Of a stretch of 64,000 bases of DNA, positions 33,339 through 36,038 are shown piece by piece. This stretch comes from an uncultured Alphaproteobacteria bacterium (lineage in GTDB: Bacteria > Pseudomonadota > Alphaproteobacteria > HIMB59 > GCA-002718135), in assembly GCA_902539825.1 (NCBI GenBank), contig CACBMH010000001.1:930-64929 (forward strand). Direction: 5' to 3'. The notes beneath the pieces are model-generated. The model was not told the DNA's origin, did no database searches, and saw only the letters and a list, made by a program, of their open reading frames with translations. Within the stretch, counting starts at the first letter, position 1. Every line of letters starts with the position of its first letter. The position numbers were made by a program, and so were the translations under genes.

Positions 33339-34310
33339 ATGGAAAATACTTCTCAGGTTCCAGTTACTGTTTTAACAGGGTTTCTTGGAGCTGGAAAAAC
33401 AACTCTTTTAAATCGAATATTAACTGAACAGCATGGAAGGAAATATGCTGTCATAGTTAATGAATTTGGTGAACAAGGTATCGACAATGATCTTGTTGTT
33501 GATGCTGATGAAGAAGTATTTGAAATGAACAACGGGTGCATTTGTTGCACTGTTAGAGGTGATTTAATTAGAATTCTAAGTGGCTTAATGAAACGTGCTG
33601 ATAAGCTTGATGCAATTATTGTTGAGACAACTGGTTTAGCAGATCCAGCACCAGTAGCACAAACCTTCTTTGTTGATCAAGATGTTGCTGATCGTACAAA
33701 ATTAGATGCAATTGTTACAGTTGCCGATGCTGTTCATCTAAGTTCTCAATTAGTCGATCATCATGAAGCAGAAGAACAAATTGCTTTTGCTGATGTAATT
33801 TTGTTAAATAAAGTTGAACTTGTTGGAGATAATGACATTGTAAAAGTTAATGATCGTATTAGAAAAATTAATCCTTTTGCTAAGATTATTAAAACAACAC
33901 GTTGTGATGCACCTCTTGATGAAATCGTAGGCTTAAATGCATTTAGTCTAGATAGAGTATTAGATATTGAACCTGACTTTCTTGAATCAGATCATGATCA
34001 TGAACATGATGATGATGTTACTAGTCTATCCTTTGTATCTGATACACCATTAGATATGGATAAGTTCCAAGATTGGTTTGGAAATTTGCTCAGGACTAAG
34101 GGTCAGGACATACTTCGATCAAAAGGAATTTTGAACTTTAAAGGTGAAGAAGAGCGATATGTATTTCAAGGAGTACACATGCTCATGGATGCTTCTCCAA
34201 TGGGGCCATGGCCAAAAGGAAAAGATAGAAGTTCTCGAGTAGTTTTTATTGGTCGTGACCTTGATAATATGAACCTTAAGGAAGGCTTTGAAAATTGTAA
34301 ATCAGCATGA
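33339..34310 (+). CDS. COG0523-family G3E GTPase (CobW/YjiA/ZigA-like putative metallochaperone)
   Basis: 323 aa with P-loop GFLGAGKTTLLNRIL, metal-binding CxCC motif GCICCTVRGDL, ETTGLADP, NKVEL and a His/Asp-rich linker ESDHDHEHDDD before the CobW_C-like domain. Confidence 0.9.
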   Translation: MENTSQVPVTVLTGFLGAGKTTLLNRILTEQHGRKYAVIVNEFGEQGIDNDLVVDADEEVFEMNNGCICCTVRGDLIRILSGLMKRADKLDAIIVETTGLADPAPVAQTFFVDQDVADRTKLDAIVTVADAVHLSSQLVDHHEAEEQIAFADVILLNKVELVGDNDIVKVNDRIRKINPFAKIIKTTRCDAPLDEIVGLNAFSLDRVLDIEPDFLESDHDHEHDDDVTSLSFVSDTPLDMDKFQDWFGNLLRTKGQDILRSKGILNFKGEEERYVFQGVHMLMDASPMGPWPKGKDRSSRVVFIGRDLDNMNLKEGFENCKSA

Positions 34311-35344
34311 ATGCTGATCTAGAAACACTTCAAAAATCAAATAAAACTGAACTTGAAAGAAGAGGTTCAATTTTCAATATTGGAGCCCCAGCTACAGAAG
34401 CGGTTACAATTCGTAATCAAATAGCGGTTGGATTTGGAGACGGCACTGTAAGATTTTTTCAATCTGGATCTGATCCTAAAACTGTTAAAGCACATAAGGG
34501 TGTAGTGTTGAGTATGACAAATTATGAAGATCATGTGTTAACGGGAGGAGAAGATGGACGTTTTCTAAAAATATCATCTGATGGAAATATTGATGAAATT
34601 TTTAATTTTGGTTCAAAGTGGGTTGACTGTGTAGCTTCCCACAAAGATACTAAAGTTTGTTCATCAGGAAAGACTGTTTATATTTGGACAAAAAACAAAG
34701 ATAAACCACAAACTTTAGAGCATCAAAGTACTGTTGCTGGATTAGCATTTGATAATAAAGGTAAGCGTCTTGCGGTCTCAAGATACGGTGGAGTAACAGT
34801 GTGGAAACTTAATAATAATAAATGGACAGCATCAAATTTTACCTGGAAAGGATCGCATGGAACTGTAACGTTTAGCCCAGATACAAAATATATTGTAACT
34901 GCAATGCAAGAAAATCAAATTCATGGTTGGCGCATAAACGACAAAGCGGATTTAGCAATGAGAGGTTATCCATCAAAAATTAAAAGTTTTACTTGGGTTG
35001 GTGATACACCGTATTTGGTAACATCTGGATCCAGTGATGCAGTTTGCTGGCCATTTGATGGTAAAGAAGGACCAATGGGGAGAAAGCCAATTGTTGTTGC
35101 AAACGGTGGTAAAGAACTTGCAACATTTGTTAAAGCACTAAATGGAGAAAAAGCTGTTTTCACCGGTTTTACAGATGGGTCAGTTTTATTAGCAGAAATT
35201 GATGAAAGTAAAAAACCAATTATGATTAGAAGTTCAACAGGTTCGGAAGTTTCAACAATAGCGATATCTAGTGATAATTCACAAATATTAATTGGGGATA
35301 TGAAAGGTTCTATTCTTTTATCATCTTTATGGGCAGACAATTAA
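34307..35344 (+). CDS. WD40-like beta-propeller protein, no signal peptide
   Basis: 345 aa with about seven repeat units, e.g. HKGVVLSMTNYEDHVLTGGEDGRFLKIS, TVAGLAFDNKGKRLAVSRYGGVTVWKL, HGTVTFSPDTKYIVTAMQENQIHGWRI and IKSFTWVGDTPYLVTSGSSDAVCWPF. Its start overlaps the COG0523 stop (ATGA). Confidence 0.8.
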   Translation: MNADLETLQKSNKTELERRGSIFNIGAPATEAVTIRNQIAVGFGDGTVRFFQSGSDPKTVKAHKGVVLSMTNYEDHVLTGGEDGRFLKISSDGNIDEIFNFGSKWVDCVASHKDTKVCSSGKTVYIWTKNKDKPQTLEHQSTVAGLAFDNKGKRLAVSRYGGVTVWKLNNNKWTASNFTWKGSHGTVTFSPDTKYIVTAMQENQIHGWRINDKADLAMRGYPSKIKSFTWVGDTPYLVTSGSSDAVCWPFDGKEGPMGRKPIVVANGGKELATFVKALNGEKAVFTGFTDGSVLLAEIDESKKPIMIRSSTGSEVSTIAISSDNSQILIGDMKGSILLSSLWADN

Positions 35345-35354
35345 AGGAGAAAAT

Positions 35355-35609
35355 ATGTTTAATCGTAAAACTCAAAATGTTGAAAAAATAAGAAATCTTA
35401 AACATTTAATTTCCAAGAAATATAAATTACCAGAAAATACTATAATAAGTATTGCTGAGCTCAGTTGTCATGAGCCTGATTGTCCACCAATCGAAACTGT
35501 AATTACTGCAAGAAATGAAGACGGATCAATGAAAAATTGGCGAGTTGCAAAATCAATAGAAGAAATAGAGGAGTCAGATATTAATAATCTAACAAACCAC
35601 ACCCATTAG
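35355..35609 (+). CDS. Hypothetical 84-aa protein with CHEPDC motif
   Basis: Strong SD (AAAGGAGAAAATATG). MFNRKTQNVEKIRNLKHL...ELSCHEPDCPPIETVITARNEDGSMKNWRV..., with a C-terminal NHTH. I do not recognise the family. Confidence 0.6.
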   Translation: MFNRKTQNVEKIRNLKHLISKKYKLPENTIISIAELSCHEPDCPPIETVITARNEDGSMKNWRVAKSIEEIEESDINNLTNHTH

Positions 35610-35630
35610 ATTATTAAATTTAGAATAAAA

Positions 35631-36038
35631 ATGTCAAAAAAACAAAAAGAAATAATATTATCTGTTTGTCTCACATGTACCCTTAATAAAGCTCAAAATA
35701 ATAATAAACTTGCAGGAGAAAAACTTGCACAAAAATTAATTGATAAATTTAAAAATACAAAAAATGTAACTTTAAGAGGTGTAAATTGCATGAGTAATTG
35801 TAAACGTTCATGTATTGTATCCTTTACCGCAGAAAATTGTTTTACCTATGTGTTTGGAGATATAGATCCTGAAAATTCTGCTTATATTGATTCAATAGAG
35901 GAACTGCTATTATCCTATAGCAAATCTGATGATGGTTTTTTGAGACGTAGACATAGACCTGAAATATATAGATCTAATATCGTTGGTAGATTTCCTCCAA
36001 TAAATAGTAAGTCAGATATTATTATTAATTTAAAATAG
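35631..36038 (+). CDS. DUF1636-family predicted metal-binding protein (thioredoxin-like ferredoxin fold)
   Basis: 135 aa with the CLTC ... CMSNCKRSC Cys pattern, then FTYVFGDIDP and RRRHRPE...IVGRFPP, the pattern I associate with DUF1636 proteins that accompany cobW-like genes in alphaproteobacteria. Confidence 0.7.
   Translation: MSKKQKEIILSVCLTCTLNKAQNNNKLAGEKLAQKLIDKFKNTKNVTLRGVNCMSNCKRSCIVSFTAENCFTYVFGDIDPENSAYIDSIEELLLSYSKSDDGFLRRRHRPEIYRSNIVGRFPPINSKSDIIINLK

What the first reader, a model, noticed from the sequence alone, without database searches (positions are those of the whole stretch)
33339..36038. Tightly coupled operon of a COG0523 GTPase, cytoplasmic WD40 propeller, 84-aa CxxxxC protein and DUF1636 protein, with no known function
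Four same-strand genes are packed with a 4-nt ATGA overlap (34307-34310), then a 10-nt gap and a 21-nt gap. The first has every COG0523 hallmark: P-loop, GCICC metal site, and the His/Asp linker ESDHDHEHDDD. The second is a roughly seven-bladed WD40-like propeller with no signal peptide, so it is cytoplasmic. The third is small, with a CHEPDC motif and a strong SD. The fourth carries the DUF1636 Cys pattern CLTC...CMSNCKRSC. COG0523 proteins are accepted GTP-dependent metallochaperones (CobW, Nha3, YeiR/YjiA, ZigA, ZNG1), but clients are known for very few. No cobalamin-synthesis or nitrile hydratase gene is visible here to act as the client. Inference: the propeller may be the client or scaffold, and the two Cys proteins may be metal or Fe-S acceptors or donors, forming an uncharacterised metal-insertion module. 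The only beta-propeller zinc chaperone I know of is AztD, which is periplasmic, so a cytoplasmic GTPase-propeller pair would be mechanistically new.
Basis: partly seen in the sequence, partly recalled or inferred. Interest (0 to 1): 0.75.

Follow-up and report, generated by a model that had tools for sequence, protein, structure and literature searches.

The report
Zinc-starvation chaperone operon with two partners
The four genes are real, but they are the tail of a zinc-starvation operon (zinc importer gene plus a zinc-chaperone GTPase); the GTPase–propeller pairing was predicted in 2009, and what looks new is that a tiny unnamed two-cysteine protein accompanies this GTPase family in at least five named bacterial lineages.

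Summary
**Observation:** confirmed. All four ORFs, the ATGA overlap, the 10- and 21-nt gaps and the domain calls are correct. The propeller models with eight blades, not seven.

**Missed context:** zur-znuB-znuC and znuA lie directly upstream. A near-consensus Zur box (31784-31798) sits in their shared promoter.

**Conservation (80 related genomes):**
- COG0523 abuts the WD40 gene in 78.
- The 84-aa gene follows the WD40 gene in 76.
- znuA precedes COG0523 in 49. Where it does not, a Zur box or a zur-like gene usually sits directly upstream of COG0523.

**Wider spread:** the COG0523/WD40/84-aa trio recurs, with shuffled gene order, in Verrucomicrobiales, Gemmataceae, Nitrospira and unnamed metagenome lineages. 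It sits beside ZnuABC, ZIP or Fur genes there.

**DUF1636:** facultative. It is present in 27 of 80 loci and absent from near-identical strains.

**Prior knowledge:** Haas et al. 2009 already listed Zur-site "znuCBA-COG0523-5-WD40" operons. No paper in the searchable library reports an experiment on the propeller.

**The 84-aa protein:** no Pfam or NCBIfam family and no PDB fold match. Its invariant motif is C-x-E-x-x-C-P-P-x-E-T.

**Verdict:** a Zur-regulon zinc metallochaperone module, a new member of a predicted kind, with one apparently undescribed conserved partner. The mechanism of the partners is inferred, not shown.

The parts
29788..30201 (-). zur (Fur-family zinc uptake repressor)
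   Evidence: Pfam FUR 5.4e-09. The best NCBIfam model is Zur (6.3e-22, 78 bits, below the equivalog cut-off of 167).
30216..31019 (-). znuB (ABC-3 permease)
   Evidence: Pfam ABC-3 6.4e-66.
31019..31762 (-). znuC (ABC ATPase with a His-rich tail)
   Evidence: Pfam ABC_tran 3.3e-26. The C-terminus reads YYQHDHDHTH.
31784..31798 (.). Zur box TGTAATATTATAACA in the divergent znuC/znuA promoter
   Evidence: One mismatch to TGTTATAWTATAACA. It overlaps a promoter-like site at 31770-31799. The same box, with 0-2 mismatches (mostly 0-1), sits at the same place in the orthologous loci whose contig reaches the znuC/znuA gap.
31840..33267 (+). znuA, probably the first gene of the operon; its His/Asp-rich loop carries an inserted domain of about 130 aa
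   Evidence: Pfam ZnuA 5.8e-63; NCBIfam ZnuA 3.6e-73. The insert (aa ~165-290) is 33% identical (E 3e-14) to the linker insert of a Verrucomicrobiales COG0523.
33282..33314 (+). 15-bp hairpin between znuA and COG0523 (possible intra-operon attenuator or mRNA stabiliser)
   Evidence: Free energy -18.1 kcal/mol, z-score -4.3, none of 200 shuffles as stable. No promoter-like site was found between it and COG0523.
33339..34310 (+). COG0523 G3E GTPase (zinc metallochaperone candidate, WD40-linked orthologous group)
   Evidence: Pfam cobW and CobW_C. It carries GFLGAGKT, GCICC, a His/Asp linker and RSKG. It is 78-95% identical across alphaproteobacterial orders and 55-59% identical to WD40-linked orthologs in other phyla, against 27-37% for paralogs.
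34307..35344 (+). Cytoplasmic eight-bladed WD40 propeller, start overlapping the COG0523 stop
   Evidence: Pfam WD40. The AF2 model has pLDDT 88 and 32 strands. ODA16, Tako8 and Rsa4 are among its best fold matches. There is no N-terminal hydrophobic segment. The cross-phylum conserved loop CWPFDGKEGPMGRKP (aa 247-261) has low model confidence.
35355..35609 (+). 84-aa protein of an unnamed family, with the motif C-x-E-x-x-C-P-P-x-E-T
   Evidence: No Pfam or NCBIfam family. The family has 792 clusters at 50% identity and 4317 proteins. Invariant residues are C38, C43, P44, P45, E47 and T48. The AF2 model has pLDDT 83 and no PDB fold match. It follows the WD40 gene directly in 76 of 80 loci.
35631..36038 (+). 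DUF1636 Cys-rich protein (predicted thioredoxin-like ferredoxin fold); a facultative member
   Evidence: Pfam DUF1636 6.2e-26. PDB homolog 9jn8, E 1.1e-10. It is present in 27 of 80 loci: 11 downstream and 15 divergent upstream. It is absent from strains whose WD40 protein is 97-99% identical, such as L005-L008.

Best explanation
The four genes are the distal part of a Zur-repressed zinc-limitation operon, znuA-COG0523-WD40-p84(-DUF1636), where p84 is the 84-aa protein. It is transcribed divergently from znuC-znuB-zur.

**How it most likely works.**
- When cytoplasmic zinc falls, Zur leaves the box at 31784-31798. The cell then makes the ZnuABC importer together with a cytoplasmic allocation machine.
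- The COG0523 GTPase holds Zn(II) on its GCICC motif. It uses GTP binding and hydrolysis, with its own C-terminal RxKG arginine finger, to release the metal.
- The eight-bladed WD40 propeller is made in fixed proportion through the overlapping stop and start codons. It acts as a docking platform, not as a metal site.
- p84 presents a Cys-x4-Cys hairpin with flanking Glu residues. This hairpin either completes or accepts the metal site of the GTPase, or it gates the GTPase.
- DUF1636 is an optional four-Cys accessory protein.

**Shown.** Gene content, the Zur box and its conservation, and co-occurrence of the three families across phyla.

**Inferred.** Co-transcription, a physical complex, zinc as the metal, and the scaffold and relay roles.
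For: **Zinc context in the window.** zur, znuB, znuC and znuA abut the genes. A Zur box with one mismatch lies in the divergent promoter.

**Conserved regulation.**
- Where znuA precedes COG0523 (49 of 80 loci), Zur boxes lie in the znuC/znuA gap; the only one found elsewhere is a single 2-mismatch match inside the COG0523 gene of L062.
- Where znuA is not adjacent, 18 of the loci examined carry a 0-2-mismatch box close upstream of COG0523 or of a zur-like gene that leads the operon; five full-length loci (L030, L045, L050, L072, L076) show none.

**Tight coupling.**
- COG0523 abuts WD40 in 78 of 80 loci.
- Stop and start overlap by 13-16 nt in Verrucomicrobiales, Gemmataceae, Nitrospira, L086 and L088.
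- p84 directly follows WD40 in 76 of 80 loci.

**Spread beyond Alphaproteobacteria.**
- All nine distant p84 homologs looked up lie within about 1 kb of a COG0523 gene.
- Seven of the nine have COG0523-WD40 adjacent. These loci sit next to ZnuABC, ZIP, Fur, ZrgA-type or DUF3299 genes.

**A distinct orthologous group.** WD40-linked GTPases are 55-59% identical across phyla, against 27-37% for paralogs in the same loci.

**Scaffold rather than metal site.** In the seven-sequence cross-phylum alignment the propeller keeps no invariant Cys and only two invariant His, both in ordinary WD-repeat positions. It does keep a 'GKxGPxG' loop that AF2 models with low confidence, as expected for a partner-binding loop.

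**p84.** Its only invariant potential metal ligands are C38, C43 and E47, with E40 nearly invariant. They lie in and just after a beta-hairpin turn.

**Literature.**
- Zur-site znuCBA-COG0523-5-WD40 operons: PMC2770081.
- The CxCC zinc site: PMC11672702.
- The RxKG arginine finger: PMC13001444.
Against: - No expression, binding or metal data exist for any of these proteins.
- A stable hairpin (-18.1 kcal/mol) lies between znuA and COG0523, so read-through from the znuA promoter is assumed, not shown. An unrecognised internal promoter cannot be excluded.
- Some distant loci sit next to CbiMNQO cobalt/nickel importers. Haas et al. also note HoxN-type transporters for this subgroup. Zinc specificity is therefore not proven.
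- Three genomes have the WD40 gene but no detectable p84 within 7 kb: L048, L072 and L074.
- Two cyanobacteria-like loci pair p84 with SufE and a different COG0523 and have no propeller. The trio is therefore not obligatory.
- Two cysteines alone do not make a zinc site.
- No complex prediction could be run.
Confidence: 0.6

Rival explanations
1. The module allocates cobalt or nickel, or substitutes cobalt into zinc enzymes when zinc is scarce. In this reading it is not zinc-specific.
For: - Two distant trio loci lie beside CbiM(N)Q-type importers.
- Haas et al. list HoxN-type cobalt transporters among the neighbours of subgroup 5.
- DUF1636 also heads a riboswitch-controlled cobalamin operon in Phaeobacter (bioRxiv 10.64898/2025.12.19.695462).
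Against: - In the window and in most of the 80 loci the neighbours are ZnuABC, Zur or ZrgA-type genes, with Zur boxes.
- No cobalamin riboswitch is present.
- No Cbi or Hox transporter is among the annotated neighbours of the cluster in the window.
Confidence: 0.12
2. The propeller itself is the metal client or a cytoplasmic zinc store: a cytoplasmic counterpart of the periplasmic propeller AztD that is loaded by the GTPase.
For: - It is always encoded next to the GTPase.
- AztD shows that a beta-propeller can bind and pass on zinc (PMC6689063).
Against: - Cross-phylum alignment shows no invariant Cys; the only two invariant His are in ordinary WD-repeat positions.
- AztD is not among the top 50 fold matches.
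- There is no sequence similarity to AztD and no signal peptide.
Confidence: 0.1
3. The accessory proteins do thiol or iron-sulfur chemistry, not metal relay. In this reading p84 is a CxxxxC redox or persulfide carrier, and DUF1636 is a [2Fe-2S] ferredoxin that keeps the GTPase cysteines reduced or repairs clusters.
For: - DUF1636 is predicted to have a thioredoxin-like [2Fe-2S] ferredoxin fold (PMC4520260). It also gives a weak NuoE-family hit.
- Cyanobacteria-like loci place p84 next to SufE, and in one case next to DUF1636 as well, before a COG0523 gene.
Against: - DUF1636 is dispensable in near-identical strains.
- The context is governed by Zur and Znu, not by Isc or Suf genes, in the window and in most loci.
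- No redox partner is conserved.
Confidence: 0.1
4. This is ordinary CobW (cobalamin) or Nha3 (nitrile hydratase) biology whose client genes lie elsewhere in the genome.
For: The Pfam domain names are cobW and CobW_C. TIGR02475 CobW gives E 1.4e-59.
Against: - The CobW model scores 201.7 against a cut-off of 332.1.
- No cob or nitrile-hydratase genes appear among the annotated neighbours in the window, in two fully annotated relatives (L033, L049), or among the called genes of the nine distant loci.
- There is no riboswitch.
- Zur boxes are conserved.
Confidence: 0.03
5. The module acts on the ribosome. The propeller docks there, as RACK1-type WD40 proteins do, and the GTPase recruits a factor, as mycobacterial Mrf does under zinc starvation.
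For: - Mrf is a Zur-regulated COG0523 relative that acts on ribosomes (PMC11672702).
- Several top fold matches are ribosome-assembly WD40 proteins.
Against: - The fold matches are generic for WD40 proteins.
- The NCBIfam Mrf model scores only 35.7 against a cut-off of 375.
- No hibernation-factor gene was seen among the annotated neighbours (L033, L049 and the called genes of the nine distant loci).
Confidence: 0.05

Closest known systems
COG0523 'subgroup 5' Zur-regulated operons (znuCBA-COG0523-5-WD40[-sapB]) predicted by Haas et al. 2009, BMC Genomics 10:470
   Same: A COG0523 GTPase is followed by a WD40 gene, sits next to znuABC, and has a Zur box of the same consensus (…ATGTTATAATATAAC…) upstream. 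These operons are also alphaproteobacterial.
   Different: - In the window znuA alone leads the operon, while znuCB-zur is divergent.
- The window has no sapB gene.
- The small CxExxCPP protein and DUF1636 are not part of the published description.
- The published work is prediction only.
Eukaryotic ZNG1 (COG0523 zinc chaperone for METAP1)
   Same: It is a G3E GTPase with a CxCC zinc site and a CobW_C domain, it is induced by zinc limitation, and it needs a dedicated protein-protein docking device to reach its client.
   Different: - The N-terminal CPxLxP METAP1-docking motif is absent here (the protein starts MENTSQVPVTV).
- It is only 36% identical to a human ZNG1A sequence that I recalled from memory.
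- Docking would be through separate propeller and p84 proteins, not through a peptide tail.
E. coli YjiA (the only COG0523 protein matched among solved structures)
   Same: It is the best PDB match (E 2e-59, full length) and has the same two-domain architecture and CxCC motif.
   Different: - The window protein is below the YjiA equivalog cut-off (242.9 against 361).
- To my knowledge YjiA has no WD40 or p84 neighbours and is not encoded in a znu operon.
ZigA / ZagA (Zur-regulated bacterial COG0523, Haas subfamily 1)
   Same: They are Zur-regulated zinc-limitation GTPases with a His-rich linker.
   Different: - It is a different subfamily. The ZigA model scores 196 against a cut-off of 600.
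- The window protein lacks the PETEEY motif (read from the sequence).
- I know of no propeller or p84 partner reported for ZigA or ZagA.
AztD (periplasmic beta-propeller zinc chaperone)
   Same: It is a beta-propeller encoded next to zinc ABC transporter, Zur and often CobW-family genes.
   Different: - AztD is periplasmic and binds zinc itself.
- The window propeller has no signal peptide, no sequence similarity to AztD, no conserved metal ligands, and AztD is not among its top 50 fold matches.

Membership tests
COG0523 (G3E P-loop GTPase metallochaperones) | cobW G-domain with a Walker A P-loop, plus a CobW_C domain | tested here: met
   PF02492 at 198 bits and PF07683 at 92 bits, both far above their cut-offs. 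GFLGAGKT lies at aa 14-21.
COG0523 (G3E P-loop GTPase metallochaperones) | N(G/S)CxCC metal motif between G2 and G3 | tested here: met
   NNGCICC, with GCICC at aa 66-70. The motif is defined in PMC11672702.
COG0523 (G3E P-loop GTPase metallochaperones) | Invariant RxKG arginine-finger motif in the C-terminal domain | tested here: met
   RSKG at aa 260-263. The motif is described in PMC13001444.
COG0523 (G3E P-loop GTPase metallochaperones) | Metal-modulated GTPase activity | not testable with these tools
   This needs purified protein.
Haas subgroup 5 (COG0523-5, WD40- and znu-linked) | Genomic clustering with a WD40 gene and znuABC | tested here: met
   Shown in the window. WD40 abuts COG0523 in 78 of 80 loci, and znuA is upstream in 49 of 80.
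Haas subgroup 5 (COG0523-5, WD40- and znu-linked) | Predicted Zur-binding site upstream of the operon | tested here: met
   Box at 31784-31798 with one mismatch. It is conserved in orthologous loci.
Haas subgroup 5 (COG0523-5, WD40- and znu-linked) | Phylogenetic placement inside the published subgroup-5 clade | not tested
Only identity levels were compared.
CobW (cobalamin biosynthesis) | Passes the TIGR02475 equivalog cut-off | tested here: not met
   201.7 bits against a cut-off of 332.1.
CobW (cobalamin biosynthesis) | Located in a cob gene cluster or behind a B12 riboswitch | tested here: not met
   No Rfam match in 29500-37700 at E<=1. The neighbours are znu, pirin, spoU and pet genes.
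ZigA | Passes the NF038288 equivalog cut-off | tested here: not met
   196.4 bits against a cut-off of 600.
ZNG1 | N-terminal CPxLxP METAP1-binding motif | tested here: not met
   The N-terminus is MENTSQVPVTVLTG, with no such motif. The motif is described in PMC11672702.
WD40 beta-propeller | WD repeats that fold into a closed propeller | tested here: met
   PF00400 at 46.4 bits against a cut-off of 27. The AF2 model has pTM 0.88 and 32 strands, read as eight blades. Foldseek matches to WD40 propellers reach E about 1e-16.
AztD | Periplasmic location (signal peptide) and conserved zinc-binding sites on the propeller | tested here: not met
   There is no hydrophobic N-terminal segment. No Cys is invariant and the only two invariant His are in WD-repeat positions. 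AztD is not among the top 50 fold matches.
DUF1636 (PF07845) | Pfam model above its gathering score, with the CxxC…CxxxC cysteine pattern | tested here: met
   91.5 bits against a cut-off of 31.6. CLTC and CMSNC are present. PDB homolog 9jn8, E 1.1e-10.
DUF1636 (PF07845) | Binds a [2Fe-2S] cluster or another metal | not testable with these tools
   Only a fold prediction exists in the literature (PMC4520260).
Zur regulon | Derepression on zinc limitation or on loss of zur | not testable with these tools
   This needs expression data. Only the operator sequence and its conservation are shown.

The most novel reading that the evidence does not exclude
The small CxExxCPP protein (p84) is a general, so far unrecognised partner of COG0523 GTPases. 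All nine distant homologs I looked up sit beside a COG0523 gene, in Verrucomicrobiales, Gemmataceae, Nitrospira and several unnamed metagenome lineages, two of which look cyanobacterial.

Together with the eight-bladed propeller it would form a three-protein zinc-delivery machine. In that machine the propeller recruits clients, and p84 accepts, hands over or gates the metal on the CxCC site. This would give bacterial COG0523 proteins, whose clients are mostly unknown, their first defined accessory apparatus.
Probability: 0.3. Interest if true: 0.7.

Novelty: new member of a known kind. Interest (0 to 1): 0.5.

Why it matters
- **Open question.** Clients and working partners are known for very few bacterial COG0523 metallochaperones (PMC11672702). 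A GTPase that always travels with the same propeller and the same small two-Cys protein offers a concrete three-protein system to reconstitute.
- **Tractable hosts.** According to Haas et al. 2009, culturable alphaproteobacteria (Bradyrhizobium, Rhodopseudomonas, Nitrobacter) carry the znu-COG0523-WD40 operon. Whether they also carry p84 was not checked here.
- **Ecology.** NCBI labels the window's proteins Pelagibacteraceae (SAR11). The exact 84-aa sequence occurs on 935 contigs of the protein collection. The module is therefore probably part of how very abundant ocean bacteria cope with scarce zinc.
- **Annotation.** The small protein family has 4317 members and no Pfam or NCBIfam entry, so it deserves a family definition.

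Tried and rejected
1. **Family searches on p84.** Pfam and NCBIfam on the 84-aa protein and on ten distant homologs gave nothing relevant.
2. **Fold search on the p84 model.** Against the PDB the best hit had E 0.07 and TM below 0.4, so there is no usable analogue.
3. **Top profile hit P0233.** This 6102-aa protein with 28 'repeats' is a false positive. It is an adhesin-like repeat protein scoring 3-6 bits per repeat, and it has no Cys motif.
4. **Apparent fusions.** P0256 (WD40 C-terminus plus p84) and P0254 (COG0523 fragment plus p84) look like frameshifted or chimeric reads, because their ends diverge. I did not count them as Rosetta-stone evidence.
5. **Other Zur-box matches in the window.** The matches at 15129 and 46143 have two mismatches. 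One lies inside a gene. Three matches is within what shuffled sequence gives (4 of 100 shuffles reached three), so I treated these two as chance.
6. **Rfam scan of 29500-37700.** No riboswitch or other RNA family was found.
7. **Literature search for 'ORF378'.** This is the name on PDB 9jn8, the DUF1636 homolog. The search returned only unrelated uses of the name.
8. **Cross-phylum alignment of the propellers for a metal site.** No conserved Cys/His cluster was found.

Full report
**1. The observation**

The first two overlap in ATGA. The next two gaps are 10 and 21 nt. An AGGAG Shine-Dalgarno sequence precedes the 84-aa gene.

The domain calls hold.
- Gene 1 matches Pfam cobW (1.2e-58) and CobW_C (1.8e-26). 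It carries the P-loop GFLGAGKT (aa 14-21), GCICC (aa 66-70), the linker ESDHDHEHDDD (aa 216-226) and an RSKG motif (aa 260-263).
- Gene 2 matches WD40 models.
- Gene 3 matches no Pfam or NCBIfam family.
- Gene 4 is DUF1636 (6.2e-26), with CLTC and CMSNCKRSC.

One correction concerns the propeller. Its AlphaFold2 model (pLDDT 88.3, pTM 0.88) has 32 strands, which I read as eight blades. ODA16, Tako8 and Rsa4, which I know as eight-bladed, are among its best PDB matches. Neither the propeller nor the small proteins have an N-terminal hydrophobic segment, so a cytoplasmic location is reasonable.

**2.

Immediately upstream lie three genes on the minus strand: zur (29788-30201), znuB (30216-31019) and znuC (31019-31762). 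On the plus strand, ending 71 nt before the GTPase gene, lies znuA (31840-33267).

The 77-nt divergent znuC/znuA region holds TGTAATATTATAACA at 31784-31798. This is one mismatch from the proteobacterial Zur-box core TGTTATAWTATAACA, and it overlaps a promoter-like site.

No promoter-like site lies between znuA and the GTPase gene. There is only a 15-bp hairpin there (-18.1 kcal/mol, z-score -4.3). No Rfam family, and hence no cobalamin riboswitch, is found anywhere in 29500-37700.

**3. Conservation in relatives**

I kept 80 loci: the window's own clade, Pelagibacteraceae, SAR116, Rhodobacteraceae/Paracoccaceae and Denitrobaculum.

| Feature | Count |
|---|---|
| GTPase gene abuts the propeller gene | 78 of 80 |
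| An 84-aa homolog directly follows the propeller gene | 76 of 80 |
| znuA precedes the GTPase gene on the same strand | 49 of 80 |

The GTPase is 78-95% identical across these orders. The propeller is 54-64% identical and the small protein 43-77%.

Zur boxes track the operon start.
- Where znuA leads, the box or boxes lie in the znuC/znuA gap; the only match elsewhere is a single 2-mismatch one inside the COG0523 gene of L062.
- Where znuA is not adjacent, 18 of the loci examined carry a box with 0-2 mismatches close upstream of the GTPase gene, or of a gene that precedes it and best matches the Zur model. Five full-length loci (L030, L045, L050, L072, L076) show no such box.
- One Pelagibacteraceae locus (L033) places the trio beside znuA/znuCB-zur and a ZrgA-ABC-FtsX-DUF3299 zinc-uptake set.

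DUF1636 behaves differently. It is present in only 27 of 80 loci: 11 downstream as in the window, and 15 divergent upstream. In at least one upstream case (L049) it leads a FecCD-type ABC importer operon that shares the Zur-box intergenic region. It is missing from strains whose propeller is 97-99% identical to the window's (L005-L008, L011, L012, L019, L022, L024), where the pirin gene follows the 84-aa gene directly.

**4. Beyond Alphaproteobacteria**

A profile of the 84-aa protein finds 792 clusters at 50% identity, or 4317 proteins in the larger collection. Almost all are stand-alone proteins of 80-130 aa with no Pfam domain. The invariant residues are C38, C43, P44, P45, E47 and T48. E40, P41 and V49 are nearly invariant. 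The His after the first Cys is kept in the alphaproteobacterial members and varies in most distant ones.

I looked up nine distant members, and all nine lie within about 1 kb of a COG0523 gene.
- Seven have COG0523 followed by a WD40 gene. The small gene comes either first or last.
  - Named lineages: Verrucomicrobiales L081, Gemmataceae L082 and Nitrospira L083.
  - Unnamed metagenome lineages: L085, L086, L088 and the P0427 locus.
  - Neighbours include ZnuABC, ZIP, Fur-family genes, DUF1826, DUF3386 and DUF3299. Two of these loci also have CbiM(N)Q transporters nearby.
- Two cyanobacteria-like loci read p84-(DUF1830 or DUF1636)-SufE-COG0523 and have no propeller.

The WD40-linked GTPases of these phyla are 55-59% identical to the window's, against 27-37% for other COG0523 paralogs in the same loci. 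They therefore form one orthologous group.

Their propellers are only 23-25% identical to the window's. They still share the motifs 'WKGS', 'Q(E/D)xx(V/I)HxW' and 'MxGYxxK', plus a 'GKxGPxG' loop. That loop is the least confident part of the model: residues 251-260 have mean pLDDT 54. No Cys is invariant in the propeller across these lineages, and the only two invariant His occupy ordinary WD-repeat (GH-type) positions.

**5. The small protein**

Its model (pLDDT 83) is one helix packed on a three-stranded sheet. The CHEPDCPP motif forms the turn between strands 1 and 2. Foldseek finds nothing significant in the PDB.

**6. Mechanism**

The best-supported reading is a Zur-repressed zinc-limitation operon that co-produces the importer's binding protein and a cytoplasmic zinc-allocation device.

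Established knowledge of the family supplies two steps, both taken from the literature:
- Zn(II) binds on the CxCC motif with nucleotide-coupled affinity (PMC11672702).
- The C-terminal RxKG arginine finger drives GTP hydrolysis (PMC13001444).

Three further steps are inferred from the comparative data:
- The propeller, which lacks conserved metal ligands and is translationally coupled to the GTPase, is a docking scaffold or client adaptor.
- The small protein travels with COG0523 even where the propeller is absent, so it is a direct GTPase partner. Its Cys-x4-Cys/Glu hairpin completes, accepts or gates the metal site.
- DUF1636 is optional.

None of the protein-protein or metal steps is shown.

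**7. Rivals**

- **Cobalt/nickel or cobalt-for-zinc substitution.** This is kept alive by the CbiMNQ neighbours in two phyla and by Haas's HoxN note.
- **A thiol or Fe-S role for the accessories.** This is suggested by the ferredoxin-like fold prediction for DUF1636 and by the SufE neighbours.
- **Propeller as client or store.** This is disfavoured by the lack of conserved ligands.
- **CobW or Nha3 biology.** This is excluded as far as sequence can tell.
- **A ribosome-directed, Mrf-like role.** This has no specific support.

**8. Comparison with what is known**

Haas et al. 2009 state that prokaryotic members of COG0523 subfamily 5 cluster with WD40 genes and znuABC. Their Additional file 5 lists Zur-site 'znuCBA-COG0523-5-WD40(-sapB)' operons in Bradyrhizobium, Nitrobacter and Rhodopseudomonas. 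The pairing and its zinc link are therefore already predicted.

Of the papers found by combining COG0523 with WD40 or beta-propeller, only Haas et al. link a WD40 protein to a COG0523 GTPase. A 2024 review of bacterial metallostasis contains neither 'WD40' nor 'propeller' in the portion of its text held by the library, which includes its COG0523 section. The small protein appears only as 'hypothetical protein' wherever a source names it.

The window protein fails the equivalog cut-offs for YjiA, CobW and ZigA. It lacks ZNG1's N-terminal docking motif. It is 36% identical to a human ZNG1A sequence that I recalled from memory, so that figure is indicative only.

**9. Verdict**

It is not a context-free novelty, and DUF1636 is not a core part.

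The added value here has three parts:
- the conserved third partner, which belongs to an unnamed family;
- the spread of the trio across phyla;
- the shared insert domain noted under things seen in passing.

Interest is moderate. The module offers a well-defined and testable route into the open question of how bacterial COG0523 proteins work.

Noticed in passing
window 36106-36189 (- strand): An uncalled 27-codon ORF, MKNQNPNPPKCGCSCSCCCTCEGGDCC, has 9 Cys in 27 residues and lies convergent to the operon, between DUF1636 and the pirin gene. It is conserved in 23 of the 25 loci of the window's clade; one copy is cut short and one has lost its first Cys. Diverged members carry in-frame substitutions (L021 MKNENPNPPKCGCSCSCCCTCEGEDCC, L054 MNSENPNPPK…GEGCC). 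It is present whether or not DUF1636 is. It has no Pfam hit, and the exact sequence is absent from the 15-billion-protein collection. It could be a metallothionein-like peptide.
   Followed up: partly
window 32335-32700 (ZnuA aa ~165-290); L081 5343-6692, L082 5310-6662, L085 5346-6695, L086 2588-3970: The window's ZnuA carries a domain of about 130 aa inside its His/Asp-rich loop (FEWAGLF…YAFFTEHMPFEFEA). A homologous domain (33% identity over 141 aa, E 3e-14) is inserted in the His-rich linker of the WD40-linked COG0523 GTPases of Verrucomicrobiales, Gemmataceae and two other lineages. It has no Pfam family. The same unnamed domain therefore sits at the His-rich loop of both a periplasmic zinc-binding protein and a cytoplasmic zinc GTPase.
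   Followed up: partly
window 35631-36038 versus L005-L008, L011-L013, L019, L022, L024: The DUF1636 gene is a presence/absence polymorphism of about 470 bp among strains whose flanking genes are 94-100% identical to the window's.
   Followed up: partly
window 33282-33314: A perfect 15-bp hairpin lies between znuA and the GTPase gene (-18.1 kcal/mol; none of 200 shuffles is as stable). In most Pelagibacteraceae loci (L051-L080) the two reading frames are less than 10 nt apart or overlap, with no room for such a hairpin. It may set the ratio of ZnuA to chaperone.
   Followed up: partly
L023, L026-L031, L034, L047, L049, L050, L055, L059, L076: In SAR116, Rhodobacterales and Denitrobaculum a second Fur-family gene directly precedes the GTPase gene, giving the order zur-like, COG0523, WD40, p84. 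For the five copies scanned, the best model is Zur, at 55-89 bits, below the cut-off. Some of these genomes also have a separate zur next to znuCB.
   Followed up: partly
L031 8989-10077, L034 8329-9414, L041 8425-9315, L043 1208-2296, L063 4707-5882: Second COG0523 paralogs, 33-39% identical to the window's, lie near the trio. In L031, L034 and L041 a Zur box of their own lies at the paralog's upstream end.
   Followed up: no
window 15335-15619 (- strand): A small ORF carries the Cys pattern CISVC…CYGCGR. It looks like a small Fe-S or zinc-ribbon-type protein and is unrelated to the finding.
   Followed up: no
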